A DNA stretch of 64,000 nucleotides from a virus. The notes under the pieces were generated by a model. That model did not search any database. It had not been told where the DNA came from and saw only the letters and a list, made by a program, of their open reading frames with translations. Where the stretch lies: the IMG/VR virus record IMGVR_UViG_3300028920_000045, positions 32,001 to 96,000 of that record. One strand, given 5' to 3'. This document shows, piece by piece, positions 37,021-51,224 of the stretch. Made by a program: the position numbers and the translations under genes. Positions within the stretch are counted from its first letter, which is position 1. Every line of letters starts with the position of its first letter.

Positions 37021-38256
37021 ATGCCTAGAGGACCAGTCGACAGAAACGGGAACCGACGGATCAAGTGTAAGGAGTGCGGGACCTGGCATCATGCCCTCGC
37101 CCCCCACCTCGGGAAAAAACACGGGATGTCCGTCGAGGAGTACATCGACAAGCACCGGGACCCGGATTCCGGTGTCGCCCCCTTGACGATCTCCGAGTAC
37201 GCCTCGAAGGAGATCGACAGGAACCGGAAGAAGAAGGGGAAGAGGGAGCGGCCGACGTCGAAGAAGAAGAACAAGGTCACCCGTCCCCCCGAGGTCCTCG
37301 ACATCGGAGGATGGGAGGTCGAGATCAGACCGGACGACGACATCCCCGACTCGGCCCGCGACGACATCCCCGTCCACGACGAGCACTGGGAGGTCGACGA
37401 GGACTTCTTCTCCCGAGTGGCCGAGGCGATCTTCCTGGACGAAGTCCTCATGATCGTCGGTCCGACTGGAGGAGGGAAGACGTCCGGGGTCGGGGAGTTC
37501 GCCTCACTGGTCAATGCGCCCTGGGTTCGTATCCAGGGGGACAAGGAAACCTCGGTCGGAAAACTCTTCGGGAAGACGAAGGTCGTGACCGACCCGGAGA
37601 CGAAGAAGCGGGTCACGGTCTTCGTCGAGGGGATCATCCCCCGGGCTCTCCGTCTCGGGTACTTCATTGTGATCGACGAGGTCGACGGACTCGACGAGGA
37701 CATCCGACTCGCCCTCCACGAAGTTCTCGAAAAGGACGCCCAGGGTCGACGTCGGTGTACCCTGGAGACGAACCTCGACGACGAGGTCGCCCGGGTCGTC
37801 TGGGCTCACCCTCGGACCAGGTTCTTCCTCACGGGCAACAACCTCGGATCGGATCTCATGGGTCTGTACGGGGGGACGGACTCGGCTCCGAACCTCGCTT
37901 TCCTCGACCGGTGTGAGAGAGTCAACGTGACGTACCCTCCGAAGGAGGTGATCTCGTCCATCGTTCACAATAAGTCGGGAGGTCTCGACGTTCGGTACTG
38001 TGATCTGATCGCCAACGCCGTACACGAGATCCTGGAGGCCCATGTCAACGCGGGTTTGACCTGGGTCTTCTCGATCCGTCGGGCCGTCACTCTCGGGCTC
38101 AAGTTCAAGTTGTACGAGGAGAGGGGTCTCCCGAAGTCGGACGCGGTCCAGAGGGTGATCCTCGACAACGTCCCGACCCCCGACATTCGGAACGACGTCC
38201 GAGGGATCATACAGAGGGTCGGGCTTCCCGTTCCGACGGTGAGGGCGACACCGTGA
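37021..38256 (+). CDS. MoxR/CobS-like AAA+ ATPase with N-terminal C2H2 (Ros/MucR-like) Zn finger
   Basis: CKEC...HL..KHGMSVEEY; GPTGGGKT; IDEVD; HPRTRFFLTGN; AFLDR; SIR. Confidence 0.9.
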   Translation: MPRGPVDRNGNRRIKCKECGTWHHALAPHLGKKHGMSVEEYIDKHRDPDSGVAPLTISEYASKEIDRNRKKKGKRERPTSKKKNKVTRPPEVLDIGGWEVEIRPDDDIPDSARDDIPVHDEHWEVDEDFFSRVAEAIFLDEVLMIVGPTGGGKTSGVGEFASLVNAPWVRIQGDKETSVGKLFGKTKVVTDPETKKRVTVFVEGIIPRALRLGYFIVIDEVDGLDEDIRLALHEVLEKDAQGRRRCTLETNLDDEVARVVWAHPRTRFFLTGNNLGSDLMGLYGGTDSAPNLAFLDRCERVNVTYPPKEVISSIVHNKSGGLDVRYCDLIANAVHEILEAHVNAGLTWVFSIRRAVTLGLKFKLYEERGLPKSDAVQRVILDNVPTPDIRNDVRGIIQRVGLPVPTVRATP

Positions 38257-40448
38257 AGACGACCAGGACGAAGTCGAAGCCGATGGTCTCGGGGTACTTC
38301 GGGACCCTGGCCGTGGTCCTCTCCAGAGAACTCGGGGTGAAGGTCATTCCGTCCGACGGTGCCTGTTGCACCGATTGTCGTACGACCATCGCCCTCCCGA
38401 TAGCTGCCGAGCACCTCCCCGACGACTCGGCCCGAATCCTCGACGGACTCCTCGACCATGAGTCCGGACATATCCGGTGCGTCAAACTCGACGAGGAACT
38501 CGGACGAGTTCCCATCGACAAGGTTGAGCCGCCGGGGACGTCTCCTCAACTTCATACGATAATGAACGGGTTGATCGACGGTCGTGACCAGATCAAAATG
38601 ACCCGACTGTACCCGGGTGTCTCGGAGAACTTCGATCACTCGTACCGGTGGGGACGGGACAGTCACCTCCGGAACGTCGAGGAGTACGAGAAGACCGGTA
38701 ACCCGGCACTCGCCCCCTCCCTCTTCCGCAACGTGGTCTGCGTTCTGACCTCGATCATGAGGGGGTACGATCCGAGTCCCTGGGGTGAGGAGGCGAACGA
38801 CCTGGTCCGGACTCACCTGGCAGACGAGGTCAGGGACGGGCTCCGACTCGTCGACGAGTTCGGGTCACCCGAGGAGTTCTTCTCCCTCTCGAAGCGGGTC
38901 CTCTCGAAGCTGGGGGACCTGGCCGAAGAACCGCCGCCTCCTCCCCCCGGTCCGGGTGGGGAGGGCGATCCGACTCCGGGAGAGGACGACGACGGTGACC
39001 CGTCCGGTGGTCAGGGTGGCGAGGAGGACGAAGACGACGACCAGGACGGTGAGGGTGAGGGAGACGAGGACGAGGACGGAGACGCCCAGGGCGAAGGGGA
39101 CGACGAGGACGAGGATGGTCCCCAGGACGACGGAGACGGCCCAGGAGAGACGAACGGGGACGAGGACGAGGGCGAGGACGAGGGTGAGGGTGAGGACGGG
39201 TCCGGGTCTGGAGACGGCCAGGAGGACGACGAGGACGGCGACGACCAGGACGGTGAGGGAGACGACGAGGTCGACGACGACCAGGACGGTGAGGGAGAGG
39301 GTGGGGGAGACGAGGACTCCGACTCCCGAGGTGGGGAGCCTTCGGACAAGTGCGAGGGTGAGGTTGACTCGGTCGATCCCGATTACGGTGACGGAGGAGG
39401 AGGGATCGGTCCCGCTCTCCGGACCGCCCTCAAGGAAGACCTCGAAGCCCTGGAGTGCGACGACGACCCGGTCGACGGAGCTGCCAGACGTCACCTCGAC
39501 GAGCAGTGCAAGAGGTCCCTCGGTCGGGTCCATATCCCGCACCCCGTTGCCCTTGCCGCCGACCGGGTGTGCGACCCCCTGGAGTTCACCTCGGCAAGCC
39601 GACAGGAACTCCTCAAGCTCTACCACTCGATCAAGAACCAGGTCACTCCGGAGATCGGTCGACTCCGGTCTCAACTCCTCCGAGCCCTCAAGTGTCAGCA
39701 GGCGAAGAAGCTCCGGGTCGAGCAGGAGGACGGGGAGTCCCTCCACGACGGGTCACTCTACAAACTGATCTCGGGTGGGGACGAGAGGGTCTTCCGGAAG
39801 AGACTCCCCGGACTCAACCTCGACACCGACCTCTCGATCCTCACCGACCAGTCTGGGTCGATGTCGGGAGGAGGGAAGATCGAGACGGCCCGGAAAGCCG
39901 TGATCGCCCTGACCGAGACCTGTGCGTCGATCAAGGTCCCGGTTGAGGTCCTCGGGTGGGACACGGGCGAGACCGTCGTCTATCCGAATCCACCGTACAA
40001 CCGGGGCGAGAATCAGAGGTATCGAGTCTATAAGACCCACGACGAACCTCTCAACGACACGGTCCGGGCTCGCCTCGCGTCGATGGGTTCCGGTATCCAG
40101 AATTGCGACTCCGAGGCCGTTGCGTGGGCGGCTGACCGACTCCAGTTGAGGAGGTCGAAGAGGAAGGTCCTCCTCGTCCTGTCGGACGGACATCCCGCCT
40201 CGTCGACCGTCGACTCCGGAGTCGACGGAGTGAATATCCGACGGGTCGTCGACCGGGCCTTCGACGCCGGGATCGAGGTCGTGTCCATCGGGATCAAGAC
40301 CGACGCACCGAGGTATTACTATCCGGTCTCGATTGTCCTCCACGACATCTCGGCTCTCTCGAAGACCTTGGTCGGAATCCTGGACGCCCTTCTTCGACAG
40401 GGGAAGAGGGTCGTCCGCAAGATGGACCGGACAGAACTGGGAGTGTAG
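38253..40448 (+). CDS. CobT-like vWA-domain protein with HExxH N-terminal domain and acidic linker
   Basis: DHESGH; D/E/G-rich linker; MIDAS DQSGSM and LSDG. Confidence 0.9.
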   Translation: MKTTRTKSKPMVSGYFGTLAVVLSRELGVKVIPSDGACCTDCRTTIALPIAAEHLPDDSARILDGLLDHESGHIRCVKLDEELGRVPIDKVEPPGTSPQLHTIMNGLIDGRDQIKMTRLYPGVSENFDHSYRWGRDSHLRNVEEYEKTGNPALAPSLFRNVVCVLTSIMRGYDPSPWGEEANDLVRTHLADEVRDGLRLVDEFGSPEEFFSLSKRVLSKLGDLAEEPPPPPPGPGGEGDPTPGEDDDGDPSGGQGGEEDEDDDQDGEGEGDEDEDGDAQGEGDDEDEDGPQDDGDGPGETNGDEDEGEDEGEGEDGSGSGDGQEDDEDGDDQDGEGDDEVDDDQDGEGEGGGDEDSDSRGGEPSDKCEGEVDSVDPDYGDGGGGIGPALRTALKEDLEALECDDDPVDGAARRHLDEQCKRSLGRVHIPHPVALAADRVCDPLEFTSASRQELLKLYHSIKNQVTPEIGRLRSQLLRALKCQQAKKLRVEQEDGESLHDGSLYKLISGGDERVFRKRLPGLNLDTDLSILTDQSGSMSGGGKIETARKAVIALTETCASIKVPVEVLGWDTGETVVYPNPPYNRGENQRYRVYKTHDEPLNDTVRARLASMGSGIQNCDSEAVAWAADRLQLRRSKRKVLLVLSDGHPASSTVDSGVDGVNIRRVVDRAFDAGIEVVSIGIKTDAPRYYYPVSIVLHDISALSKTLVGILDALLRQGKRVVRKMDRTELGV

Positions 40449-40551: not shown

Positions 40552-41409
40552 ATGGCACCCGGACTCGAAGAACTCCGGTCTCGGTTCTCGAAGGTCGGAA
40601 AGGCCGAGAGAGAGAAGAAGGCCGAAGAGGAACGGATCGCTCTCCGGGAGCGAGAGGTCAAGATGGTCGACCTCACCCTCAAGGGACTGGTCGACGCCCG
40701 GTCCGAACTCCGACTCCAGAACGAGGAGGCGGTTCGTCGAGGTGGAGAGGGTGTCGACGTCCCCGACTGTCTCGGGTTCTGTGAGGCCAGGAACCGGGAG
40801 AAGGCCAAGAGGGATACCTGTCGGGCCTGCGGGGTCCGTGGGAATTGTGAGTCGACCGACCGAGACCTCGGGGTCTGGAAGAACCTCAAGGCGTACGCTC
40901 CTCGGTGCTTCATACAGGGGCTCAACCGGAAGGACAGGAAGAACCGTATCCAGTGCAACGCTTGTCCGTACAAGACCCCCTGTGTCGGCCATCGGGAGTA
41001 CCGGGCTCTCCTGAAAAAGAGGGAGTTCTTCCAGAAGAAACAGAAGGAGAAGGAAGAGAGGGACCGGAAGGAAGAGGAGGCTCTCGCCCGAGCTGCCAAA
41101 GCACCAGACGAGATCAAGACCGACGTCGTCTTCGAGCGGTACGAGTATCGCGGGCTCACGGCCAAGGGCCGACGGTCCGAGAAGTTCTGGGAGGTCGCTC
41201 GTCGAGGACGGTTCCTCCTCCGACGGTGGGGGAAGATCAGGGGGACGAAGGTCGACCGTCTCCTCAACGTCTACTCGTCCGATACCGTGGCTCAAGAGAG
41301 GATGGACGAACTCACGTCCCAGAAGACGGGCAAGGGGTACCGGTACGACAGCCGACCGACTCGGTCCGTCGTGATCCGCCCCGACTCGAAGACCTGGGTC
41401 GAGGCTTGA
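40552..41409 (+). CDS. WGR-domain protein with two Cys4 modules
   Basis: EKFWEV...RWGKI...KGY WGR pattern; two C-x15/16-C-x2-C-x5-C motifs. Confidence 0.75.
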   Translation: MAPGLEELRSRFSKVGKAEREKKAEEERIALREREVKMVDLTLKGLVDARSELRLQNEEAVRRGGEGVDVPDCLGFCEARNREKAKRDTCRACGVRGNCESTDRDLGVWKNLKAYAPRCFIQGLNRKDRKNRIQCNACPYKTPCVGHREYRALLKKREFFQKKQKEKEERDRKEEEALARAAKAPDEIKTDVVFERYEYRGLTAKGRRSEKFWEVARRGRFLLRRWGKIRGTKVDRLLNVYSSDTVAQERMDELTSQKTGKGYRYDSRPTRSVVIRPDSKTWVEA

Positions 41410-41419
41410 CGGAGGACTC

Positions 41420-41737
41420 ATGCCAGAGTATACGAAGTGTCCCCATTGTGGATTTGCCGTCCCGATCCCCGGGACCAGGAAGAAGAGGACGACGAGGGTG
41501 ATCGCTGGAGTGCCTGGTCAGTGGGAACCGACCGACTACCAGGGAGCACGGAAGGGGGACGAGGTCCTTCTCGTTTTCGGGGTCGGGAAGAAGTCGCAGA
41601 CCACTCGGGGCAGGGTCGTCCGGAAGTACCGGGGGATCTATCTTCGGACCATCGGACCGCAACCGACGACTCGTACGTTCTTCGATGTCCCGACCGTGGA
41701 CTCTGCGACGTCTGTCTTCCGGAGGGTGAGGACGTGA
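41420..41737 (+). CDS. small Zn-knuckle hypothetical protein
   Basis: SD ggagg; CPHC. Confidence 0.6.
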   Translation: MPEYTKCPHCGFAVPIPGTRKKRTTRVIAGVPGQWEPTDYQGARKGDEVLLVFGVGKKSQTTRGRVVRKYRGIYLRTIGPQPTTRTFFDVPTVDSATSVFRRVRT

Positions 41738-42459
41738 CCCGTTCCAGGAAGATCCCTCCGGAGAGGGTCCGACCCGAGGTGGCCGTCTCCCCGGAGAACG
41801 TCCGGAAGTACGTCCGACTCCTTCGGACCCAGGCCATGAGACTCGCCCGAGCCGAACGGACCGGGATCGATGACGCCGACCAGGAGATCGCACTCCTGGT
41901 TATGGAGGCTCTCCCGAAGTACGACCCCCACCGGGCGACGGTCCGACAGTGGGTCCGACTCTACGTCACCGGCCGGGTCCGAGACCGGGTCGCCTCGGCA
42001 TCGGCCGTGAAGAACCGTCCGACCGTCTGGACGTACGACCAGGTCTGGGGATGGTACCGTCAACCGGCCCAGGCGACTCCCGGGATCGAGGAAGACCAGG
42101 AGTCCGAAGATCTGACCACGACCGAGGACCAGTTCTTCGAGTCCGAACGTCGTGTCCGATTCGAGGAGGCCATCGCAGAGGCAGAGTCCGAACTTCGACG
42201 AACGGTCCGACCTGGTCAGGCCGACATCGCCGTCAAGGTCTTTCGGACTCGTCTGGAGGAGGCGACGGAGACGGGACGACAGAGACGACAGAACCCCCGG
42301 GCGACGGTTGAGTCCCTGGGGATCTCGTACTATGAGGAGAGACGACTCTGGCTCCAGGGTCGGACCCTCCTCCGGAGAGCACTCCGACAGAGAGGAGAAC
42401 TCGGAGCCCCGGAGAGGGTCCGACCCCGAACTATTCACCACAAGGGCGAACGCCCGTAA
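41734..42459 (+). CDS. phage RNA polymerase sigma-70-family factor
   Basis: Region 2 pattern DDADQEIAL...EALPKYDP.RAT.RQWV; degenerate region-4 HTH (ESLGISY). Confidence 0.75.
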   Translation: MTRSRKIPPERVRPEVAVSPENVRKYVRLLRTQAMRLARAERTGIDDADQEIALLVMEALPKYDPHRATVRQWVRLYVTGRVRDRVASASAVKNRPTVWTYDQVWGWYRQPAQATPGIEEDQESEDLTTTEDQFFESERRVRFEEAIAEAESELRRTVRPGQADIAVKVFRTRLEEATETGRQRRQNPRATVESLGISYYEERRLWLQGRTLLRRALRQRGELGAPERVRPRTIHHKGERP

Positions 42460-42486
42460 CTGGAGAGAGAGGGAGGACGAGGAACG

Positions 42487-43707
42487 ATGGCGAAGAAGAA
42501 GAAGACGAAGTCCGAGGACGAGCACTCGATCCCGAAGTGTCTGGGGTTCCATGCCGGGGACTCGACCTGCGACGGTGACCCCGAGGCGGCTGACCCGGAG
42601 ATGCGGGAGAGCTGCCCGGTCCGGGAGGAGTGCATCCGGCTCCAGTCCTACGCCACCGAGACCGGGGAGGACGCGGACGAGCTGATCAAGGGCCACGCCT
42701 CGGTCGAGTCCGTGGTCCGGATGCTCGACGAGCAGGAGGACGACGACTCCGACGTCGAGGACGAGGACGACTCCGACGTCGAGGACGAGGAGGAGGACGT
42801 CGAGGACGAGGAGGAGGACGTCGAGGACGACTCCGACGTCGAGGACGAGGACGACGTCGAGGACGACGTCGAGGACGAGGACGAGAACCAGGAGTCCGAG
42901 GAGGACGAGGAGGAGGCCGAGCCGATGCCGACGAAGAAGACCAAGGACAAGACCAAGGACAAGACGACGACGAAGAAGGAGTCGACCAAGTCGAAGACCA
43001 AGTCGACGAAGAAGACCTCGAAGAAGTCGTCGAAGAAGAAGACGGCCCCCGCCAAGGACGAGACCTCGAAGAAGTCGTCGAAGAAGAAGACGGCCAAGGC
43101 CAAGACCAAGGACTCGGGGTCGAAGAAGACCTCGAAGAAGAAGACCGAGCCCGAGAAGCCCGAGTGCTTCGAGGACGAGACCAAGTACAACGGGAACGTG
43201 GACCCCTGCAAGTCCTGTCCGGTCGGGAAGGAGTGCAAGACCCGGGTCTACACGAAGCGGACCCTCGCCCGTCGGAAGGCGAAGAAGAAGGAGACGGCCC
43301 AGGAGCCGCCGAAGAAGCCGAAGACGACCACGACCAAGGGGTCGACCCCGAAGTCGCCCCAGACGTCGGCTCCGGTCGCCACGGACGGCAACCCGGTCCT
43401 CGGGGTCGCCCACTCCCAGGGGTGGGACGTCCAGGACTTCGGGACGTACCAGGAGGTCGGTCGGTTCGTCGGCCGGGGCCAGACCCCCGAGGTCTTCCTC
43501 CGGGTCTTCGAGGACGGGGCGTTCCTCCGGGTCGCCACCTCCGACACCTCCCCGGCCGGTCTCCGGGCCGACCCGTCATTCCTGGTCGAGACCCTCAAGG
43601 CGAAGAAGTCCGACGCCCCCGGCTTCGACTTCGACCTGGAGGTCAAGACCAAGGGCGTCCGGAAGTCCCTGATCGAGACCCTGACCGACGAGCCCTCGAT
43701 CATCTAG
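42487..43707 (+). CDS. charge-block disordered protein (acidic tract, H1-like Lys-rich tract, two Cys4 modules)
   Basis: EDEDDSDV repeats, KKTSKKSSKKK repeats, PKCLG and PECFE modules. Confidence 0.8.
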   Translation: MAKKKKTKSEDEHSIPKCLGFHAGDSTCDGDPEAADPEMRESCPVREECIRLQSYATETGEDADELIKGHASVESVVRMLDEQEDDDSDVEDEDDSDVEDEEEDVEDEEEDVEDDSDVEDEDDVEDDVEDEDENQESEEDEEEAEPMPTKKTKDKTKDKTTTKKESTKSKTKSTKKTSKKSSKKKTAPAKDETSKKSSKKKTAKAKTKDSGSKKTSKKKTEPEKPECFEDETKYNGNVDPCKSCPVGKECKTRVYTKRTLARRKAKKKETAQEPPKKPKTTTTKGSTPKSPQTSAPVATDGNPVLGVAHSQGWDVQDFGTYQEVGRFVGRGQTPEVFLRVFEDGAFLRVATSDTSPAGLRADPSFLVETLKAKKSDAPGFDFDLEVKTKGVRKSLIETLTDEPSII

Positions 43708-43717
43708 GAGGTCCGAC

Positions 43718-44335
43718 GTGGCCCCTTCCATCGACGACCTCCGGAAACGATACCGTCCCGGACGTCGGAAGAAGGACGACGAGACCGAGACCTCTGGCCG
43801 TGGTGGTCGGGGGTCTCGGTCAACCCGTCCTTGTATCCGGTGCAAGGGCCAGGGTACGGTCGGGGGGGACGAGTTCTCGAAGACGGCCGAGGTCCGGTGT
43901 CCTCGGTGCGGGGGGACGGGGATCGATCCCGACACACCCCACGAAGAACGACGGCCCCGACGAGCCGGGACCGAGGTTGACCCCGAGGACCTCTTCCGTA
44001 CTCCCGACGAGAGGAAGAAGGCCAGGCAGAAGAAGGTCAACCCGAAAGCCCTGGCCGACAAGGTCCGGAAGAAGACCGGGAAGAAGTACAAGATCGTCGA
44101 CGACGGCCGTGGTCACAAGGACGCGGTCCTCTACTTCGGGAAGTACTCCGGGTCGAAGGTCTCTCACCTGGTCGCGGACGAGGATGGACGGAGCTATCTT
44201 CTCTGGGTCCTCAAGGAAGGATTCGAGGACGAACTCAAGGAAGTCGTCGTCCACCGTCTCCACCTCGAAGGGTACGACCCGGCCGAACGGATGTCAGACC
44301 CCCGAGGTACCCTCCCCCGTCGGACCCCTTTCTAG
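43718..44335 (+). CDS. DnaJ-type Zn finger plus FGKY (ExoX C-terminal-like) domain protein
   Basis: CIRCKGQG and CPRCGGTG; LYFGKYSG...YLLWVL. Confidence 0.75.
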   Translation: MAPSIDDLRKRYRPGRRKKDDETETSGRGGRGSRSTRPCIRCKGQGTVGGDEFSKTAEVRCPRCGGTGIDPDTPHEERRPRRAGTEVDPEDLFRTPDERKKARQKKVNPKALADKVRKKTGKKYKIVDDGRGHKDAVLYFGKYSGSKVSHLVADEDGRSYLLWVLKEGFEDELKEVVVHRLHLEGYDPAERMSDPRGTLPRRTPF

Positions 44336-44353
44336 CACCTCGGAGGTGCCGTC

Positions 44354-47300
44354 TTGAGTCCCACTGCTGACCCCTGGGTCAATCTTCACGTTCACTCTAT
44401 GTTCTCCCTCCTCGACGGGGTCGGGTCGTATGAGGACTATGCGAAGAGGTTGATCCGGTGGAGGGAGAAGGTCGGACTCAAGGGACCGGGGTACCTCGCC
44501 GCGACCGAGCACGGGTCGATGCGGGGGATCGTCCGTCTCCAGAAGGTCGCAGAGGAGAACGACCTCCGACCCATCTTCGGGATCGAGTTCTACACGGCCG
44601 AGGACCTCACCGTTAAGTCTCTCTCCGACGCGGACAAGAGTCTCGTCCAGAAGGAACCGTTCCGGGAGAGACGGTCGTTCCAGGCTCGACTCGAAAAGTA
44701 CCGGGGAATCCGACCCCGGTGGCACCTCACCGCCTGGGCCTTGAACGAGACCGGACTCCGGAACCTGATCCGTCTCTCCTCGATTGCCTGGATAGACGGG
44801 TTCTATTACAAGCCCCGGATCGACTTCCCCACCCTGGAGAAGTACTCGGACGGGATCGCCATCGGGTCGGCTTGCCTGGCCGGTCCTCTCTGTTCTCCGG
44901 TCCTCGACGGTGAGCCGTTGGTCGCCGTCGAGAACGCGGTCTTCCTCAAGGACGTCTTCGGTGATCGGTTCTACGTCGAGATCATGGCGAACGGTATCCC
45001 CGAGCAGGACCGGGCGAACCGTGCTCTCGTCCGTATCGCCCGACGACTCGACCTCCCGTTGATCGCCACGGTGGACAGTCATTACACACAGCCTCGGGAC
45101 TGGAGACTCCAGGAGGCGCTACTCTGTGTCCAGACGAACGACAAGATCGCCAACCCTAAACGGTTCCAGTTCTCCTCTCGGGACTTCTGGTACAAGACCG
45201 GAGACGAAGTCCGAAAGGGGTTCCGCCAGTACCATCCCTGGCTCAAGACCTCGGTCGTCCGACGGGCGATTCGGACCACGGCCGAACTCGCGGAGAGGTG
45301 CGAGGCGACCTTGACCCTCGACCCCTTGGCAGCTCTCCTTCCGACGCCGTCCGACCGGGACACGACACCCGAGGAGGACTTCGAGGCTCTCCGGGACCTG
45401 TGTGTCGAGGGGTGGGTCTGGAGACGGATCGAGGACCGGGCCAAGTTCGTCGCGGGGGTGAGGAAGTCCTCGGTCTCTCGGGTCGTGAAGGAGTATAAGA
45501 AACGACTCGCCCACGAACTCCGAGTCCTCCGGGAGAAGAAGTTTTCCCGGTACATCCTGGTCCTGTATGACCTGGTCCAGTGGGCGAGGGATCAAGGGAT
45601 CTTTGTAGGACCAGGACGAGGGTCGGCGGCGGGGTGTCTGGTCGCGTACCTCGTCGGGGTGACGTCGATGGACCCGGTCGAGCACGGACTCCTATTCGAG
45701 AGGTTCCTCCCTCCTGGTCGAGTGGACTTCCCGGACATCGACGTCGACTTCGAGAAGGAGAGACGACCCGAGGTGATCCAGTACCTCGTCGACAAGTACG
45801 GTCGAGGGAGCACGGCCCAGATCTCGACGTACTCGACCATGAAAGGGAGGGGTTGTTTCCGGGACGTTGCCAGGGTGTACTCGGTCTCCACGACCGAGAC
45901 GAACCGGGTGGCCTCTGCCATCCTCCAGAGACTCCCAGGACACGAACGAGAGGACCACTGTATCGAGGACTCTCTCGATACGTCTCCCGAGTGCAAGGCC
46001 TTCCGGAAGAAGAACCCGGTCGTCTTCTCGGTGGCCGAACGTCTGGAGGGGACCATCCGTCAAGTCGGTCTCCACGCGGCCGGGGTCGTGGTCACTCCGA
46101 ACCCGCTGATCGAGATCGTCCCTCTGGAGTCACGGGTCGACCCAGACACGAAGGCCCGGGTCCCGGTGATCGCTGTCGACTTCCGGGACGCCCAGGAACT
46201 CGGGTTGATCAAACTCGACGCTCTCGGTCTCAAGCACCTCACGGCAATCCGTCACTCCCTCCAGGCCGTCGAGGATCTGTACGGTGGGGCGATCACCCTG
46301 GAGGACCTGGAGTCGGAGCACTACCAGGACCCGAAGGTCCTCGGCGCGTTTGACGATCCGGCGAACCGGGTGGGGGTCTTCCAGTTTGACTCTCCGACCA
46401 TGTCGTCGATCATGACCTTCCCGGTGACCAGATTCGAGGACCTGGTCGCACTCAACGCACTCAACCGTCCCGGGGCCATGAGGTCAGGACTCGCCCGACG
46501 GTACGCCGCCCGAGCCCGGAAGGGAACCAAGCCGAAGAAGGTCCATCCGATCCTCGACCGGATCACGTTCCCGACTCTCGGGGTCCTTTGCTACCAGGAG
46601 CAGGTGACCAGGGTCTTCGTCGAGCTGGCAGGGTACGACCCCGGGGACGCCGACAAGATCCGGAAGAAGATCGGAAAGAGTGAGGGTGAGAAGGCCATCG
46701 CTCCGGAGAAGACGAAGTTCGTGACCGGTGCTGTCGACCGTGGTCTGGACGAGGACAAGTCGAAGGTCCTCTTCGCCCAGATCCTCAAGTTCGGCGGGTA
46801 CGCTTTCAATAAGTCCCACGCCGCTGCGTATTCGGCTCTGGCATACTGGGAAATGAGACTCCTCGTCGAGTTCCCCGACACGTTCTTCCTCGGTCTCCTC
46901 CAGGCCGAGGATCAACTTCCGAAGGTCGCCCGGTATATCGAGACGTCGTCTCGGCACGGTGTCGACGTTCTTCCTCCGGACGTGAACGAGTCGACGACCC
47001 GGTACCGTCTGGTCCACCGCAACACGATTCGATGTCCCCTCAACGGACTCAAGGGTATCGGTGCGAAAGCTGCCGACTCGATAGTCAAGGGTCAACCGTT
47101 TCGGTCCGTGGCCGACCTGGTCAACCGAACGGACTCCCGGGCCGTGACGTCGAAGGCCCTGGAGGTTCTGGCCCAGGCAGGAGCCCTCGACTCCCTGGTC
47201 CCGAATCGGAGGTACCTGGTCGAGAACGCAAAGGACCTGGCCGAGAGGATCAGGAAGAAGGACGGCGAGTCGGTCGACACCGAGGTCAGTCTCTCCGGTT

Positions 47301-48082
47301 CGTCTCCCGACTACTCGAAGACGGAGAGGATAAGACGGGCGGTCGAGATCGGGGTGTACGGACCTGGTCACTCGCCCCTCGATGCGTACACCGATCTCTG
47401 GGAAGAACTGGAGTCTCACGGTGTCGAGTTCGTCCGACTCGGTGACATCGACTGGAACGAGGCTCTCGTCTGGGTTCGGGCCGTTGCCCGTGAAGCCAAG
47501 GCGATCACGACCGACGACGGACGGGTCGCAAACATGGTCCTCACCGACGGGTCTGGTCCGGACATCCGGGCGAGGGTGGAGACCAAGGAACTCGACCGAT
47601 TCGAGAGAGCCGCCACGAAGGCACAAGGAAAGGCCGTCCTCGTCCGGGCAGGACTCAACGCGAAGTCGAAGGGTCTCCGAGTACTCAAGGTCTTCCTGGC
47701 CGAAGACTTCCACGCACACTGGCGGTCGAAGGAACTGACCGACGAGGAGAAGAGGGTCTTCCGTCACCCCCTCCACGGTATCCGTCCGAGGTACAACGTG
47801 AGGAAGGCCATCGCAGACGAGGACGTCGGTCTCCTCTCGTTCGTCGGTCGGATCGAGTCGGTCAAGATCTGGGAGGACAGGAAAAAGAAGAAGATGGCCT
47901 TCTTCGATGTCCAGGCGTGGACAGGGTCGATCCCGGTCGTCTGTTTCGGGTCGTCGTTCCCCTCGTTCAAGAACGCGATCTATACCGGAGCCGTGGTCAA
48001 GGTCGAGGTTCTCCGAGGAGACGGCCCGTCCTGGGTCCTCGATTCGGAGTCGGGTTGCTCGATCAAGGACCTCGGACACTGA
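44354..48082 (+). CDS. dnaE: DNA polymerase III alpha subunit (family C)
   Basis: HVHSMFSLLDG PHP domain, GPGRGSAAG, PDIDVDF, HAAGVV, YQEQV, FNKSHA. Confidence 0.97.
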   Translation: MSPTADPWVNLHVHSMFSLLDGVGSYEDYAKRLIRWREKVGLKGPGYLAATEHGSMRGIVRLQKVAEENDLRPIFGIEFYTAEDLTVKSLSDADKSLVQKEPFRERRSFQARLEKYRGIRPRWHLTAWALNETGLRNLIRLSSIAWIDGFYYKPRIDFPTLEKYSDGIAIGSACLAGPLCSPVLDGEPLVAVENAVFLKDVFGDRFYVEIMANGIPEQDRANRALVRIARRLDLPLIATVDSHYTQPRDWRLQEALLCVQTNDKIANPKRFQFSSRDFWYKTGDEVRKGFRQYHPWLKTSVVRRAIRTTAELAERCEATLTLDPLAALLPTPSDRDTTPEEDFEALRDLCVEGWVWRRIEDRAKFVAGVRKSSVSRVVKEYKKRLAHELRVLREKKFSRYILVLYDLVQWARDQGIFVGPGRGSAAGCLVAYLVGVTSMDPVEHGLLFERFLPPGRVDFPDIDVDFEKERRPEVIQYLVDKYGRGSTAQISTYSTMKGRGCFRDVARVYSVSTTETNRVASAILQRLPGHEREDHCIEDSLDTSPECKAFRKKNPVVFSVAERLEGTIRQVGLHAAGVVVTPNPLIEIVPLESRVDPDTKARVPVIAVDFRDAQELGLIKLDALGLKHLTAIRHSLQAVEDLYGGAITLEDLESEHYQDPKVLGAFDDPANRVGVFQFDSPTMSSIMTFPVTRFEDLVALNALNRPGAMRSGLARRYAARARKGTKPKKVHPILDRITFPTLGVLCYQEQVTRVFVELAGYDPGDADKIRKKIGKSEGEKAIAPEKTKFVTGAVDRGLDEDKSKVLFAQILKFGGYAFNKSHAAAYSALAYWEMRLLVEFPDTFFLGLLQAEDQLPKVARYIETSSRHGVDVLPPDVNESTTRYRLVHRNTIRCPLNGLKGIGAKAADSIVKGQPFRSVADLVNRTDSRAVTSKALEVLAQAGALDSLVPNRRYLVENAKDLAERIRKKDGESVDTEVSLSGSSPDYSKTERIRRAVEIGVYGPGHSPLDAYTDLWEELESHGVEFVRLGDIDWNEALVWVRAVAREAKAITTDDGRVANMVLTDGSGPDIRARVETKELDRFERAATKAQGKAVLVRAGLNAKSKGLRVLKVFLAEDFHAHWRSKELTDEEKRVFRHPLHGIRPRYNVRKAIADEDVGLLSFVGRIESVKIWEDRKKKKMAFFDVQAWTGSIPVVCFGSSFPSFKNAIYTGAVVKVEVLRGDGPSWVLDSESGCSIKDLGH

Positions 48083-48094
48083 CACGAACCCTGG

Positions 48095-48110
48095 CAGCTC
48101 TCGAAGTATC
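48095..48110 (+). promoter_or_regulatory. candidate phage promoter/operator motif (copy 2)
   Basis: 16-bp identity to 29900-29915; intergenic, upstream of the SD. Confidence 0.5.
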
Positions 48111-48143
48111 AGAGGGACACGAACCCCAGGAGGAAAAGAGACC

Positions 48144-48692
48144 ATGCCCGAGAAGATCGTGATCAAGATCAACGGAGAGGATGTCAACGTCACGTCCGAC
48201 CTCGTCGTCGGACCGGACCTCGACAGGGAACTCGACCGGGGGTCGGCCCTCGTCGCCAAGTACGGCCGTCTCCTGTCGAGAGCCCAGAACAAGGAAGCCC
48301 AGTGCCTCGCGGAGTACCGGCACTGGCGAGCCCGACAGACCGAGACCATCCTCCAGGCCGACCCGAAACTGGCCGAGTGGAAGGTCAAGGCCAAGGTCGA
48401 GAGCCTCCCCCAGTTCCTCCAGCACAAGGAAGACATTGCGTCGGCCGAGGAGGAGACGCACGGTCTCTGGGGTGTGTACGAGGCCGTCTGCCGACGGTGT
48501 GACCTCCTCCAGTCCCGGAACTCCAGGGACGTCCGGAACCTGTCGACTCTCGGGACCGACGGTCTCCCGGGCGAGGAGGAGATCGACAAGGCCGAGAAGA
48601 CCCGACGGGTCAGTGAGATCGTCGGGCGGAAGAAGAAGTCGAAGACCAAGGGCGCACCGACTCGGGAGCGTCCGAAGAAGACGCGGTCCTAG
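48144..48692 (+). CDS. UvsY-like recombination mediator
   Basis: All-helical protein with KLAEWKVKAKVES pattern, next to SSB and RecA. Confidence 0.55.
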   Translation: MPEKIVIKINGEDVNVTSDLVVGPDLDRELDRGSALVAKYGRLLSRAQNKEAQCLAEYRHWRARQTETILQADPKLAEWKVKAKVESLPQFLQHKEDIASAEEETHGLWGVYEAVCRRCDLLQSRNSRDVRNLSTLGTDGLPGEEEIDKAEKTRRVSEIVGRKKKSKTKGAPTRERPKKTRS

Positions 48693-48716
48693 TCGGACCA
48701 GAGAAGGAGAGAAGAC

Positions 48717-50009
48717 ATGGGAACTGACCTCGACAAGCTCCGGAAGTACAAGAAAGACAGAGCCACGGGGAGGAACCTCCTGATCCCCGAGGGCGACTCC
48801 CTCGTGTACATCGCCCCGCCCGCCCGGGAGGACTGGGACCTCCCGTTCCTGGAGACGGCCGTTCACTTCGGGTTCCCCGGTGGTCCGAAGCTCTGCCTCA
48901 ACTCCGACCGGAACCCGCTCCTCAAGGACCCCGAGTTCCTCAAGGTGGCGAAGAAGGCCGGGGTCGACGTCAACGGTCCCTGCAAGATCTGTCAGAAGCT
49001 CTCGGGGAAGCCCGGGAAGCCGGGTCTCTGGGACACGGACAAGGAAGCCGCCCGGAAGATCTCCGCGAGCAACCGGTTCCTGATGATCGCCGGTCGCCTC
49101 TGGGGTCGGAAGGACTCGACCGACTCGTACTCCCCGGTCGAGCCCTTCGAGCTGAAGCCCCTTCCCGTCGGCAAAAAGATCTGGGAGGCCGTGGTCGACA
49201 TCTTCCTCGACCTGGAGGTCGACCTCACCGATCCCCTCGCCGCCATCCTGATCAAGTTCCACCGGGAAGGGACGGGCCTGGAGTCCCAGTACAACATCAC
49301 CGCCGACCCGAAGACGACGAAGAAGCCCCTCCGTCTCGGGAAGGCCGAGCGCCGGATGATCCGGGAGGCGCTCGCGGAGGGGTCCGACTGTGATCCCTAC
49401 CTCGCCGCCCTGGAGTGGTACACCTCCCCCGAGGAGATGTCCGCGCTCCTGGAGGGGGTCGACCTCGACGACGACGACGAGGACGACGACGACGACGACG
49501 AGGTCGAGGCCAAGCCGCCGAAGAAGTCGAAGAAGACCTCGAAGAAGAAGACCTCGAAGAAGAAGTCGAAGAAGAAGCCCACGTGCTTCGGGATCGACTA
49601 CTCCTCCGACGACGAGGACTGTGAGGACTGTGAGTTCCGGTCCGAGTGCGCGGACGAGTCCGGGCACGAGTCCGACGACGACGAGGACGAGGACGAGGAC
49701 GACGAGGTCGACGAGGTCGAGGACGACGACGAGGACGACGAGGAGGAGGACTCCGACGACGAGGACTCCGACGACGACGACGAGGACGAGGACGACGAGG
49801 ACGACGAGGACGACGAGGACGAGGACGACTCCGACGAGGACCTGGAGGACCTGGAGGCGGCTCTCGACAAGAAGACCGGCAAGGGCAAGAAGTCGAAGAA
49901 GAAGCCGGTCAAGTCCTCGAAGAAGAAGACCTCGAAGAAGAAGACCTCGAAGAAGACCTCGAAGAAGAAGTCGAAGAAGACCCCCGCCCGCAAGCGGCCG
50001 AAGAAGTAG
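48717..50009 (+). CDS. gp32-like single-stranded DNA-binding protein with long charge-block tail
   Basis: HFG..C...CKIC Zn motif, DLTDP...IKF.R.GTG...Y; acidic and Lys-rich tails. Confidence 0.75.
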   Translation: MGTDLDKLRKYKKDRATGRNLLIPEGDSLVYIAPPAREDWDLPFLETAVHFGFPGGPKLCLNSDRNPLLKDPEFLKVAKKAGVDVNGPCKICQKLSGKPGKPGLWDTDKEAARKISASNRFLMIAGRLWGRKDSTDSYSPVEPFELKPLPVGKKIWEAVVDIFLDLEVDLTDPLAAILIKFHREGTGLESQYNITADPKTTKKPLRLGKAERRMIREALAEGSDCDPYLAALEWYTSPEEMSALLEGVDLDDDDEDDDDDDEVEAKPPKKSKKTSKKKTSKKKSKKKPTCFGIDYSSDDEDCEDCEFRSECADESGHESDDDEDEDEDDEVDEVEDDDEDDEEEDSDDEDSDDDDEDEDDEDDEDDEDEDDSDEDLEDLEAALDKKTGKGKKSKKKPVKSSKKKTSKKKTSKKTSKKKSKKTPARKRPKK

Positions 50010-50031: not shown

Positions 50032-50113
50032 GGCAGAACCCCCGGTCCAGGAGAAACGGTCCCTCTCGTTCCCCCGGACCCTCGACCCCCGCCCGGGGGT
50101 TCTGCCGTTTCTT
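50032..50113 (+). terminator. long stem-loop (terminator or processing site)
   Basis: Perfect 14-bp inverted repeat ggcagaacccccgg/ccgggggttctgcc followed by gtttctt. Confidence 0.65.
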
Positions 50114-50126
50114 GAGGAGGAGTGAG

Positions 50127-51224
50127 ATGGCGAAGTCGAAGAAGAGGACTCGGCCGAAGAGGAAGAAGTCGGTCGCACAGCTCATGGTCTCGGCCGACTC
50201 GGAACTCATGGTCGGTCAGTCGGCCCGAGACGCCGGTCGTCTTCGGGGTGTGATCCCGACGGGTCTGGAGTCGGTCGACATCGCCATCGGTCGAGGAGGT
50301 CTCCCCCAGGGCCGGGTGTCGATGATCCAGGGGGACGAGGGTGGAGGGAAGACGACGTTCTGTCTCTCCTGCTGTCGGTCCGTCCAGGAGCGGGGAGGGG
50401 TGGCGATCTATGCTGACCCCGAGAGGAAGCTCGATCTCGGGTACGCCGAGAAAGTCGGGGTTGACCTGGACGAGCTGATCCTCGACCACCCGAGAACGAT
50501 GGAACGGTTCGCACTGACCCTCAAGAGGTCGGTTGATCGTCTCCTCGACATCTGCGAGGAGGAGGGGGAAGAGATCCCGGGGTTGATCGTGGTCGACTCG
50601 ATCACGGCCCTCGACACCTTCCTCGAAACGTCTCTCGAAGACCTGGCCGGTCAGGGCAAGCCGAGGAAGGGGAGGAAGAAGGGAGAGGGGGTCGCCCCGA
50701 GGGTCGGTGCTCAACCGTTGGCGATGTCGGTTCTCCTACGGAAGATCGTCCCGGTTCTGGCCGAGTCGCCTATCGCACTCCTCCTCGTCTCACAGCTTCG
50801 GACCAAGCTGACCCACTGGGGAGCCCAGAACGACTCGACCTGTGGTCGTGCTCCGAAGTTCTATTCCTGCCTGATTATCCAGGCTCGTCCGGAGTCGGAG
50901 AACGAGTCGGGTTCAAGAGTCGGGGAGCGGGTCGAGTTCTACGTCGCCAAGAACCAGATCGCACAGCCGTTCAAGTCGGGACAGTACTCGATCCTCGGAG
51001 CCCGGGGTCTCGACCGGGAGAGGGACATCCTCGACGCGGCCGTGACCCTGGACCTTGCCGAGAGAGCTGCCAAGGGCGGGTGGATTACGTTCTCGGACGA
51101 CACCCCGTTCAAGGGTCTCAAGGTCCAGGGACCGAGGGGTCTCCGGGTGAAGATGCGGAAGAGACCGGAACTCGGGGACGAGATCCGAGCCGTGATCCGG
51201 AAGACGGCCGGGTGGGAGGACTAG
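50127..51224 (+). CDS. recA: RecA-family recombinase
   Basis: IPTG...GGLPQGR, GDEGGGKT, VVDSITAL, SQLR, KNQIAQPF. Confidence 0.93.
   Translation: MAKSKKRTRPKRKKSVAQLMVSADSELMVGQSARDAGRLRGVIPTGLESVDIAIGRGGLPQGRVSMIQGDEGGGKTTFCLSCCRSVQERGGVAIYADPERKLDLGYAEKVGVDLDELILDHPRTMERFALTLKRSVDRLLDICEEEGEEIPGLIVVDSITALDTFLETSLEDLAGQGKPRKGRKKGEGVAPRVGAQPLAMSVLLRKIVPVLAESPIALLLVSQLRTKLTHWGAQNDSTCGRAPKFYSCLIIQARPESENESGSRVGERVEFYVAKNQIAQPFKSGQYSILGARGLDRERDILDAAVTLDLAERAAKGGWITFSDDTPFKGLKVQGPRGLRVKMRKRPELGDEIRAVIRKTAGWED

What the first reader, a model, noticed from the sequence alone, without database searches (positions are those of the whole stretch)
40762..49650. One Cys4 micro-domain reused five times in three unrelated proteins
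Seen: P-x-C-[FL]...C-x2-C-x5-C occurs twice in the WGR protein (spacers 16 and 15), twice in the 42487 protein (PECFE...CKSCPVGKEC, plus a variant PKCLG...C-x14-CPVREEC) and once in the SSB tail (PTCFG...CEDCEFRSEC), mostly next to disordered charged tracts. Known: C-xn-C-x2-C-x5-C is the [4Fe-4S] ligand spacing in WhiB-like proteins and endonuclease III. Inference: a mobile Fe-S or Zn module acting as a shared docking or redox-sensing tag that links these proteins; I do not recognise it as a described system.
Basis: partly seen in the sequence, partly recalled or inferred. Interest (0 to 1): 0.75.

Follow-up and report, generated by a model that had tools for sequence, protein, structure and literature searches.

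The report
Undescribed four-cysteine module of phage SSB tails
A roughly 30-residue four-cysteine metal-binding unit that normally occurs once, in the tail of the DNA-coating protein (SSB) of many uncultured phages, has spread in this 108-kb phage to nine copies on five otherwise unrelated proteins; no domain library I searched describes it, and its metal and function are still unknown.

Summary
P-x-C-[FL]-G…C-x2-C-x5-C occurs five times in the window at the stated places. It occurs four more times just outside, so the 107,749-bp phage has nine copies on five proteins. All copies are in coding frames, with 8 core motifs against about 0.13 expected.

This is a real domain family. The four Cys, P, F and G are invariant in SSB orthologues from 96% down to about 30% identity, while the charged tracts around them cannot be aligned. 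Of 71 non-redundant host ORFs, 32 match Pfam gp32 and 39 match PHROG SSB families. Ten other large phage records carry one copy each (one carries two), so the spread here is lineage-specific.

Pfam, NCBIfam and PDB sequence searches do not recognise the module. The WhiB and EndoIII membership tests fail. The same Cys spacing binds [4Fe-4S] in WhiB and zinc in the metazoan C-clamp, so the metal is open; I lean towards zinc.

My best reading, at moderate confidence, is a metal-folded docking knob that gathers its carriers at SSB-coated DNA.

This scan has noted Cys4 extensions of phage SSBs on other DNA, made by frameshift or readthrough. Two of my loci show the same layout.

The parts
40552..41409 (+). 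Gene for the WGR-domain protein (285 aa from the ATG; database protein P0001). Layout: N-terminal coiled-coil-like region, two Cys4 modules, a K/E-rich helix, then a C-terminal WGR domain.
   Evidence: Pfam WGR PF05406, 31.3 bits, residues 205-268. All nine Cys lie inside the two modules.
40762..40848 (+). Cys4 module 1 of the WGR protein (P-x-C-L-G...C-x2-C-x5-C, spacer 16, one extra Cys, basic loop).
   Evidence: Invariant in the sister phage.
40900..40983 (+). Cys4 module 2 of the WGR protein (spacer 15, basic loop).
   Evidence: The sister phage changes only non-Cys residues.
42487..43707 (+). Gene for a 406-aa protein. Layout: variant module, long acidic tract, long K/S/T tract, canonical module, then an unassigned C-terminal domain of about 110 aa.
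   Evidence: No family above threshold in Pfam, PHROGs or NCBIfam. All eight Cys lie in the two modules.
42532..42633 (+). Variant module (C-x9-C-x14-C-x5-C). The canonical second Cys is missing, and a Cys in the loop may take its place.
43159..43236 (+). Canonical module (spacer 13, C-x2-C-P-V-x3-C).
   Evidence: Weak WhiB match over this stretch only (E 0.1, 13.6 bits).
48717..50009 (+). Gene for a gp32-type SSB-like protein (430 aa). Layout: core of about 250 aa, then a tail with an acidic tract, a K-rich tract, the module, a long acidic tract, a conserved acidic helix and a K-rich end.
   Evidence: No direct Pfam hit. The orthologue P0023 (63% identity) matches L007:9983-11182 by tblastn (E 6e-6), and that ORF scores 39.4 bits on Pfam gp32 PF08804. 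ESM Atlas: 27 of 30 nearest clusters are of the gp32 set, score 0.93. A RecA-like gene follows, as in L007.
49578..49649 (+). Cys4 module in the SSB tail (spacer 11, strongly acidic).
   Evidence: The block P288 C290 F291 G292 D294 Y295 D298 D299 E300 C302 C305 C311 A312 is invariant in five orthologues from 92% down to 30% identity. It is the best conserved block of the protein.
49833..49874 (+). Conserved acidic amphipathic helix in the SSB tail (D-E-D-L-E-D-L-E-A-A-L type), a likely separate partner-docking peptide.
   Evidence: Conserved in P0015, P0023 and P0024. Similar D-D-L-M-x-x-M-E-x-A-I ends occur in other module-bearing SSBs.

Best explanation
The unit is an autonomous four-cysteine metal-binding micro-domain of about 28-33 residues. 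Its consensus is [KRQL]-P-x-C-F-G-x-[FYW]-[DE]...C-x2-C-x-hydrophobic-x3-C, with a C1-C2 spacer of 9-16 residues and a mode of 10. It belongs to a family that no searched library describes and that is common in uncultured tailed phages. The family's normal place is the C-terminal tail of gp32-type single-stranded-DNA-binding proteins, usually as one copy per genome.

In this phage lineage the module has spread to nine copies on five proteins:
- the WGR protein (2 copies);
- the acidic/basic 406-aa protein (2 copies);
- the SSB (1 copy);
- a 204-aa protein (1 copy);
- a 281-aa protein (3 copies).

Proposed mechanism:
1. Inferred: the four Cys hold one metal centre, zinc somewhat more likely than [4Fe-4S]. 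The metal folds the peptide into a small knob, and the conserved Phe and other aromatic residues form its core or contact face.
2. Inferred: the knob is a protein-protein docking unit of the SSB tail.
3. Inferred: proteins that acquired it are brought to the same receptor, or to each other, at SSB-coated DNA in the replication and recombination machinery.

Shown: the domain exists, it is under selection, and its distribution and architectures are as described. Inferred: metal binding and its identity, and the docking role.
For: The domain is real and selected.
- 8 core motifs against about 0.13 expected, all in coding frames.
- An exhaustive HMM search of 1.84 billion representative proteins found multi-copy relatives. 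These include a 44-aa stand-alone form and a Pfam gp32 protein with 5-7 tandem C-terminal copies.
- SSB orthologues down to 30% identity keep P, C, F, G and all Cys, while the flanking tracts are unalignable.
- In sister phages the modules are invariant, but the flanking D/E and K tracts carry indels.

Distribution.
79 matches lie in ORFs of at least 90 aa.
- Columns that the pattern did not fix are also conserved: aromatic at +4, acidic at +5 and +6, hydrophobic at +16.
- 32 of 71 host ORFs hit Pfam gp32 and 39 of 71 hit PHROG SSB families. Other carriers are SAP-domain proteins, a small terminase, DUF3310 and a nucleotide kinase.

The expansion is specific to this lineage. The same profile finds 1 copy (once 2) in ten other phage records of 96-194 kb, and 8 in this genome.

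Docking is favoured over DNA binding.
- 56 of 75 modules have net charge of 0 or below, down to -8.
- They sit in SSB tails. By established knowledge of E. coli SSB-Ct, T7 gp2.5 and the T4 gp32 A-domain, SSB tails are partner-docking hubs.
- In L041 and L010 the module lies in the -1 frame, overlapping the stop of an SSB ORF that ends in ..DPF / ..KAF.
Against: - No metal, structure or partner has been shown.
- The AlphaFold2 model of the stand-alone module is of low confidence (pLDDT 57), and fold searches gave nothing.
- Several module-bearing SSBs still carry a separate terminal docking peptide after the module, either a ..VPF tip or an acidic helix. The module therefore does not simply replace the classical tip, and its own role in the tail is open.
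- The only conserved non-Cys residues are P, F, G and one or two aromatics, which is a small surface for a specific shared receptor.
- The loop charge follows the carrier: basic in the WGR protein and acidic in the SSB. That fits a scaffold with different uses as well as it fits one common tag.
- No universal co-occurring partner was found. A RecA-like gene is present in 4 of 5 near-complete module-bearing genomes and DnaE in 2 of 5.
Confidence: 0.45

Rival explanations
1. [quoted passage not shown] It would act as a redox, oxygen, NO or iron sensor, or as a cluster-dependent fold switch, that couples the phage's replication proteins to the state of the host cell.
For: - The C-x2-C-x5-C triad plus a distant fourth Cys is the [4Fe-4S] motif of WhiB proteins (PMC5462746). 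The same Cys-X2-Cys-X5-Cys string also appears in papers on MutY and plant DNA glycosylases (titles listed; those passages were not read).
- Many copies have the sub-pattern C-x2-C-P-hydrophobic-x3-C. From my knowledge, WhiB and MutY share it.
- The only weak profile hits are to WhiB (E 0.1 in Pfam, E 0.12 to PDB 8dy7_H) and to Cas4 (2 of 75 modules, E about 0.01).
- The carriers are DNA-metabolism proteins, a class rich in Fe-S clusters.
- An earlier scan note (e1-6008522) calls this a sediment phage.
Against: - The same spacing is a proven zinc site in the C-clamp (PMC3896468, PMC4999783).
- WhiB and EndoIII family models fail.
- The C1-C2 spacer mode of 10 is below the 14-22 quoted for WhiB.
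- A solvent-exposed acidic unit of about 30 residues, in up to 7 tandem copies on an abundant protein such as SSB, would demand very large amounts of iron.
- The phage has no IscA or NifU-type assembly genes.
- The Rrf2-family regulator next to the 3-module gene lacks cluster ligands.
Confidence: 0.25
2. The module is a zinc-dependent nucleic-acid-binding knuckle that works like the metazoan C-clamp. It would add DNA contacts to proteins that already bind DNA (SSB, WGR, SAP-domain proteins, small terminase).
For: - The best PDB profile hit of the 75-member alignment is the HDBP1 C-clamp (7dta_A, E 0.13).
- The C-clamp has Cys-X12-Cys-X2-Cys-X5-Cys, about 30 residues and one Zn, and it binds DNA (PMC3896468, PMC4999783).
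- Nearly all identified carriers are DNA-associated.
- The two WGR copies have basic loops.
Against: - The match covers only C2-C4 and is not significant.
- The basic residues that the C-clamp needs between C3 and C4 are absent from most copies.
- 56 of 75 modules have net charge of 0 or below, and the SSB-tail copies reach -8 or -9, which is incompatible with binding a polyanion.
- P-x-C-F-G has no counterpart in the part of the C-clamp sequence that I could see.
Confidence: 0.15
3. The repeats are a chance or compositional by-product of Cys-containing low-complexity tails and have no function of their own.
For: The modules lie next to highly repetitive D/E and K tracts that expand and contract quickly.
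Against: - About 60-fold excess over expectation and exclusive presence in coding frames.
- Invariance across orthologues at 30% identity.
- At least 79 in-frame IMG/VR matches, with conservation also at positions the pattern did not fix.
- A stand-alone 44-aa form exists.
Confidence: 0.02

Closest known systems
C-clamp of TCF/Pangolin and HDBP1/SLC2A4RG (metazoan zinc-binding DNA-binding domain; PDB 7dta)
   Same: - A unit of about 30 residues with four Cys spaced Cys-X12-Cys-X2-Cys-X5-Cys (PMC4999783); the phage module has X9-16, X2, X5.
- An autonomous small domain appended to other DNA-binding domains.
- The best, though non-significant, PDB profile hit (E 0.13).
   Different: - The C-clamp is basic and binds DNA through basic residues next to C1 and between C3 and C4. 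Most phage modules are acidic.
- The conserved P-x-C-F-G and the aromatic at +4 were not seen in the parts of the C-clamp that aligned.
- It is metazoan transcription factors against phage replication proteins.
- Homology is not shown.
WhiB-like (Wbl) [4Fe-4S] proteins, Pfam PF02467
   Same: - A Cys-Xn-Cys-X2-Cys-X5-Cys ligand pattern (PMC5462746).
- Frequent C-x2-C-P-V/L-x3-C.
- Small size.
   Different: - PF02467 scores far below its cut-off.
- The C1-C2 spacer is mostly 10, against 14-22 in WhiB.
- The G-[VI]-W-G-G turn and the basic tail are absent; only the WGR copy 1 is followed by G-V-W.
- The module is embedded in large unrelated proteins and occurs in tandem arrays.
Iron-sulfur cluster loop of endonuclease III / MutY (Pfam PF10576) and the Cas4/AddB nuclease cluster
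   Same: The C-x2-C-x5-C triad, with a hydrophobic residue two positions after the third Cys.
   Different: - EndoIII has C-x6-C and sits inside an HhH-GPD fold; PF10576 finds nothing in this genome.
- In Cas4/AddB the first Cys lies hundreds of residues away, inside a nuclease fold. One example is seen in L006:3497-4216.
- No such catalytic domain is present in the carriers.
C-terminal docking tips of SSBs (E. coli SSB-Ct D-D-D-I-P-F, T7 gp2.5 acidic tail, T4 gp32 A-domain)
   Same: - Position at or near the end of an acidic, disordered SSB tail.
- Acidic plus aromatic composition.
- A probable role in recruiting partners.
   Different: - Those tips are short unstructured peptides without metal, whereas this is a Cys4 unit.
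- Some module-bearing SSBs keep a ..VPF tip or an acidic helix as well.

Membership tests
WhiB-like (Wbl) proteins | Match to Pfam PF02467 above the gathering score (23.6 bits). | tested here: not met
   13.6 bits, E 0.1, for the 42487 protein. The best six-frame hit in the genome is 8.8 bits. No hits for the nine modules scanned singly.
WhiB-like (Wbl) proteins | [quoted passage not shown] | tested here: inconclusive
   X2 and X5 are met in 7 of 9 own copies and in all IMG/VR copies. The first spacer is 10-16 in the own canonical copies, 9-16 across all collected copies, and has a mode of 10 in 76 of 88 IMG/VR copies. Most copies therefore fall below the Wbl range.
WhiB-like (Wbl) proteins | G-[VI]-W-G-G turn and basic C-terminal tail after the fourth Cys (from my knowledge of the family). 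| tested here: not met
   Read directly. It is absent. Only the WGR copy 1 is followed by G-V-W-K-N.
WhiB-like (Wbl) proteins | Binds an oxygen- or NO-sensitive [4Fe-4S] cluster. | not testable with these tools
   Needs anaerobic purification, UV-vis, EPR and metal analysis.
Endonuclease III / MutY iron-sulfur cluster loop | Match to Pfam PF10576, C-x6-C-x2-C-x5-C spacing, and location within an HhH-GPD glycosylase. | tested here: not met
   PF10576 has no match in the genome at E up to 10, while 13 of 14 control genomes score over the cut-off. The first spacer is never 6. No HhH-GPD domain is present in the carriers.
C-clamp zinc domain | Cys-X12-Cys-X2-Cys-X5-Cys in about 30 residues (PMC4999783). 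| tested here: inconclusive
   X2 and X5 are met. The first spacer is 12 in one own copy and in P0024, and 10 in most others. The profile hit to 7dta_A has E 0.13 and covers C2-C4 only.
C-clamp zinc domain | Basic residues next to C1 and between C3 and C4, which are required for DNA binding (PMC3896468, PMC4999783). | tested here: not met
   The C3-C4 positions are mixed or acidic, and 56 of 75 modules have net charge of 0 or below. Only the WGR copies are clearly basic.
C-clamp zinc domain | Stoichiometric zinc. | not testable with these tools
   Needs ICP-MS on purified protein.
gp32-type SSB (for the 48717-50009 protein) | Direct match to Pfam PF08804. | tested here: not met
   No Pfam hit for the window protein, P0023 or P0024. 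The AlphaFold2 model failed (pLDDT 37).
gp32-type SSB (for the 48717-50009 protein) | Homology to recognised gp32-family proteins, and position in a replication/recombination operon. | tested here: met
   - Transitive link: window protein to P0023 (63% identity), to L007:9983-11182 (tblastn E 6e-6), to PF08804 at 39.4 bits.
- ESM Atlas: 27 of 30 nearest clusters are of the gp32 set, score 0.93.
- The gene lies between DnaE and a RecA-like gene, as the L007 homologue lies before a RecA-like gene.
Cas4/AddB-type nuclease Fe-S cluster | First Cys at the N-terminus and C-x2-C-x5-C at the C-terminus of a PD-(D/E)XK nuclease domain. | tested here: not met
   Only 2 of 75 modules give weak TIGR00372 hits (E about 0.01). 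No nuclease domain is present in the carriers.

The most novel reading that the evidence does not exclude
The module is a minimal [4Fe-4S] (or redox-active thiol/zinc) switch that also works as a sticker between or among its carriers. By placing it on the SSB, the WGR protein, the acidic/basic 406-aa protein and two others, this phage would assemble a metal- and redox-gated replication compartment. Charge-block tails and Cys4 knobs would hold that compartment together, and its assembly would follow the host's iron or redox state.
Probability: 0.12. Interest if true: 0.85.

Novelty: new variant of a known kind. Interest (0 to 1): 0.6.

Why it matters
SSB tails are the organising hubs of replication, recombination and repair, and they are normally described as metal-free acidic peptides. 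A conserved, unannotated Cys4 module on the SSB tails of many uncultured phages points to an unstudied layer of replisome organisation or regulation.

In some phages the module appears to be reachable only by shifting frame at the SSB stop. In this phage it has been copied onto four further proteins.

This phage is a natural experiment. Whatever binds the module should connect five proteins of otherwise unknown relationship. The module is also small enough (44 aa as a stand-alone protein) for direct metal analysis and structure determination. Finally, it would give annotators a new domain model for a frequent piece of phage 'dark matter'.

Tried and rejected
- Single-protein searches for relatives of the WGR protein and the SSB-like protein found nothing in IMG/VR or in cultured phages. 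The word-indexed search found only the protein itself.
- The word-indexed search with the module alignment found only this phage's own lineage.
I could therefore not see the genomic context of P0004, P0006, P0010 and the others, or the sister phages.
- AlphaFold2 gave low confidence for the stand-alone module with a 10-row alignment (pLDDT 57). It failed for the whole SSB-like protein (pLDDT 37).
- Foldseek against PDB returned nothing. VIA-align wide returned only Z up to 2.6, which I treat as meaningless.
- tblastn of multi-copy module proteins (P0022, P0004) against 50,697 cultured-phage records found nothing. Module-bearing SSBs match cultured Bacillus and Pseudomonas phage SSBs only over the core.
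- A PDB hit to 9sfa_A over the tail was a C-x2-C piece next to a His tag, not the module.
- Two hits of the exhaustive search (P0007, P0013) were false positives.
- The Rrf2-family gene beside the 3-module gene has a single Cys and no cluster-ligand motif, and the phage has no IscA or NifU genes. These give no support to the Fe-S reading.
- The genome search 'relatives' is not available for a virus record.
- Literature searches for the motif in phages or SSBs found nothing relevant.
- I rejected recent intragenomic duplication, because the copies share no DNA similarity.

Full report
**Setting.** The window is bases 32001-96000 of a single 107,749-bp IMG/VR virus record. The record is linear, CheckV rates it about 95% complete, and it has about 63% G+C. 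The genes around the finding all lie on the plus strand and form a replication and recombination block:
- a CobT-like vWA protein (38253-40448);
- the WGR protein (40552-41409);
- a weak sigma-70 region-2 protein (41437-42459);
- the 406-aa acidic/basic protein (42487-43707);
- a DnaJ-type CxxCxGxG protein (43718-44335);
- DnaE (44354-48082);
- a 184-aa unknown protein (48138-48692);
- the SSB-like protein (48717-50009);
- a RecA-like protein (50112-51224).

**Observation.** All five copies are at the stated positions. In the whole genome the core C-x2-C-x5-C occurs 8 times in the plus frames and never in the minus frames. Cys frequencies predict about 0.13 and about 0.3 respectively. Seven of the eight carry P-x-C-[FLY] upstream.

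There are four further copies outside the window. One is in a 204-aa protein with a K-rich head and an acidic middle (L001:1220-1312). Three are in a 278/281-aa protein that starts 190 bases past the window's end (L002:232-333, 346-432, 568-666). That makes nine copies on five proteins.

Two copies are variants: C-x9-C-x14-C-x5-C at 42532-42633, and C-x13-C-x4-C-x5-C in L002. Apart from the four Cys in the SSB core, every Cys of the five proteins lies in a module. The proteins share nothing else, and the copies show no DNA similarity. They are old, diverged insertions rather than recent duplications.

**Is it a real domain?** Four lines of evidence say yes.

1. An exhaustive profile search of 1.84 billion representative proteins with the nine copies gave 13 hits at E of 0.001 or better. 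Besides this phage's own proteins and two false positives, the hits include:
   - small proteins with 2-3 copies (P0004, P0009, P0011);
   - a 44-aa stand-alone copy (P0012);
   - a 441-aa protein with three C-terminal copies (P0005);
   - a marine-sediment protein with a Pfam gp32 domain and 5-7 tandem C-terminal copies (P0006/P0022);
   - a 554-aa distant homologue of the window's SSB-like protein with three copies (P0010).
2. Orthologues of the SSB-like protein at 92, 58, 34 and 30% identity all keep the module. The block P288 C290 F291 G292 D294 Y295 D298 D299 E300 C302 C305 C311 A312 is invariant and is the best conserved part of the protein. The acidic and basic tracts around it cannot be aligned.
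3. In sister phages of more than 95% identity, the modules are unchanged or change only at non-Cys positions. The flanking D/E and K tracts gain and lose residues.
   - 79 matches lie in ORFs of at least 90 aa, from loci of 28-67% G+C.
   - Columns that the pattern did not fix are conserved: K/R/L/Q at -3, E at -1, aromatic at +4, acidic at +5 and +6, hydrophobic or aromatic at +16.

**Where does it live?** Of 71 non-redundant host ORFs, 32 match Pfam gp32 (PF08804) and 39 match PHROG SSB families. 47 ORFs form one BLAST cluster. That cluster is mostly SSBs of 270-450 aa with the module at or near the C-terminus. Other carriers are:
- three SAP-domain proteins, by Pfam;
- a family of 150-170-aa proteins with two C-terminal modules (I take this to be phrog_34306, which matched six members);
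- a small terminase;
- a DUF3310 protein;
- a nucleotide kinase.

The window's own 430-aa protein gets no direct Pfam hit, but its SSB identity holds by three routes.
- Its 63% orthologue P0023 matches L007:9983-11182 (E 6e-6). That ORF scores 39.4 bits on gp32 and has the H-x12-C-x8-C-x2-C zinc signature.
- The ESM Atlas places residues 1-255 among gp32 clusters (0.93, 27 of 30 hits).
- The gene order SSB then RecA-like is shared with L007.

The L007 SSB has an acidic/basic tail without the module, so the module is an optional insert in such tails.

**Lineage-specific spread.** A profile built from 74 IMG/VR modules plus one copy from this genome finds one copy (once two) in each of ten other phage records of 96-194 kb. 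It finds 8 of the 9 copies in this genome. One module per genome on the SSB is therefore the norm, and nine on five proteins is special to this lineage.

**What is it not?**
- Pfam finds no family for any copy, and NCBIfam gives only scattered weak hits.
- PHROGs gives no module family; it was run on whole carrier proteins.
- WhiB (PF02467) scores 8.8-13.6 bits against a cut-off of 23.6.
- The EndoIII cluster-loop model finds nothing.
- PDB profile searches give only non-significant hits that cover the C-x2-C-x5-C part. These are WhiB at E 0.12 with the 9-copy profile and the HDBP1 C-clamp 7dta_A at E 0.13 with the 75-copy profile.

**Which metal?** The literature shows that the same spacing serves two metals.
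- Cys-X14-22-Cys-X2-Cys-X5-Cys binds [4Fe-4S] in WhiB proteins (PMC5462746). The triad also recurs in MutY-type glycosylases (titles).
- Cys-X12-Cys-X2-Cys-X5-Cys in the 30-residue C-clamp binds one zinc, shown by ICP-MS and chelator/add-back experiments (PMC3896468, PMC4999783).

Spacing alone therefore cannot decide. I lean towards zinc, at roughly 55:35, for these reasons:
- the unit is tiny, exposed and often very acidic;
- it occurs in tandem arrays of up to seven on a protein that is normally very abundant;
- the phage encodes no cluster-assembly genes.

The C-x2-C-P-hydrophobic-x3-C sub-pattern and the DNA-enzyme context keep Fe-S alive as an alternative. The AlphaFold2 model (helices over C2-C3 and from C4 on) is too uncertain to use (pLDDT 57).

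**Function.** By established knowledge of E. coli SSB-Ct, T7 gp2.5 and the T4 gp32 A-domain, SSB tails are docking hubs. Most modules are acidic and aromatic: 56 of 75 have net charge of 0 or below. That argues against DNA binding and for protein contact.

In two loci (L041, L010) a gp32-like ORF ends in ..DPF or ..KAF, and the module lies in the -1 frame overlapping the stop. L041 has the heptamer C_CCT_TTT on the last two sense codons. This matches unchecked notes from this scan on other phages (e1-6038660, e1-5863304, e1-5806205, e1-5956482). It suggests that some phages make both a tip-ended and a module-ended SSB.

There are caveats. Several module-bearing SSBs still end in a ..VPF tip or in an acidic D-D-L-M-x-x-M-E-x-A-I type helix. 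The window's SSB has such a helix at 49833-49874. The module is thus a second element of the tail rather than simply a replacement for the tip.

No universal partner emerges. RecA-like genes lie in 27 of the 120 loci and in 4 of 5 near-complete genomes. DnaE lies in 13 loci and in 2 of 5 genomes.

My best reading, at about 0.45, is a metal-folded docking knob. By its spread in this phage it would bring the WGR protein, the 406-aa protein and two others to the same place as the SSB. The basic loops of the two WGR copies leave room for a DNA-contacting use in that carrier.

**Novelty.** The kind of element is familiar: a small Cys4 metal-binding module appended to unrelated proteins. The family, its home on phage SSB tails and its expansion here are not in Pfam, NCBIfam or the PDB sequence set, and my literature searches found no description of them. 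Other agents in this scan have noted Cys4 extensions of phage SSBs on other DNA. Apart from the layout in L041 and L010, I could not confirm that those are the same family.

**Limits.**
- Both structure predictions were of low confidence.
- My chance estimate for that scan (some tens of matches at most) is rough.

Noticed in passing
L041 (reverse-strand coordinates 3022-4128 for the SSB ORF; module ORF = L041:9099-9425:-) and L010:1957-3162 / 3039-3326: A gp32-like SSB ORF ends in ..KKDPF (L041) or ..NQKAF (L010), and the Cys4 module lies in the -1 frame overlapping the stop. In L041 the last two sense codons form the slippery heptamer C_CCT_TTT. This looks like a programmed -1 frameshift that gives a module-ended SSB isoform.
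   Followed up: partly
window 49833-49874: A conserved acidic amphipathic helix (D-E-D-L-E-D-L-E-A-A-L-D-K-K) lies near the end of the SSB tail. It is kept in orthologues down to 32% identity and resembles the D-D-L-M-A-E-M-E-A-A-I ends of other module-bearing SSBs. It is probably a separate partner-docking peptide.
   Followed up: partly
window 62685-63443: An Rrf2-family winged-helix regulator (PF02082, 34.6 bits) lies upstream of, and near, the three-module gene that starts at window position 64190. Only the DNA-binding part matches. The protein has a single Cys, so no IscR/NsrR-type cluster site is visible.
   Followed up: partly
window 43718-44335: A 205-aa protein has a DnaJ-type C-x2-C-x-G-x-G double knuckle. 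It gives weak hits to Anti-TRAP and DnaJ_CXXCXGXG, and to Q-like antiterminator PHROGs. It lies directly upstream of DnaE and is a different Cys motif from the module.
   Followed up: no
window 38253-40448: A CobT-like vWA protein (CobT_C, 69 bits) is interrupted by a D/E/G-rich acidic tract of about 190 residues. Long acidic and K-rich tracts recur in many non-virion proteins of this phage, and their length varies between sister phages.
   Followed up: no
window 40849-40890: Seven residues after the last Cys of WGR module 1 comes G-V-W-K-N, which resembles the G-[VI]-W-G-G turn of WhiB proteins. It occurs in this copy only and is probably coincidence.
   Followed up: no
L006:3497-4216: A 239-aa protein beside a module-less gp32-like SSB has one N-terminal Cys and a C-terminal C-x2-C-x5-C. 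I read this layout, from the sequence alone, as the classical Cas4/RecB-type Fe-S arrangement. It is a useful contrast to the compact module.
   Followed up: no
L040:5331-6422, L078:5954-6934, L058:5781-6869: A family of proteins of about 330-360 aa in other phages has two N-terminal modules, an acidic linker, a SAP motif (read in L040 and L078; Pfam SAP in 3 of 71 ORFs) and a conserved C-terminal domain. This is a second recurrent architecture for the module.
   Followed up: no
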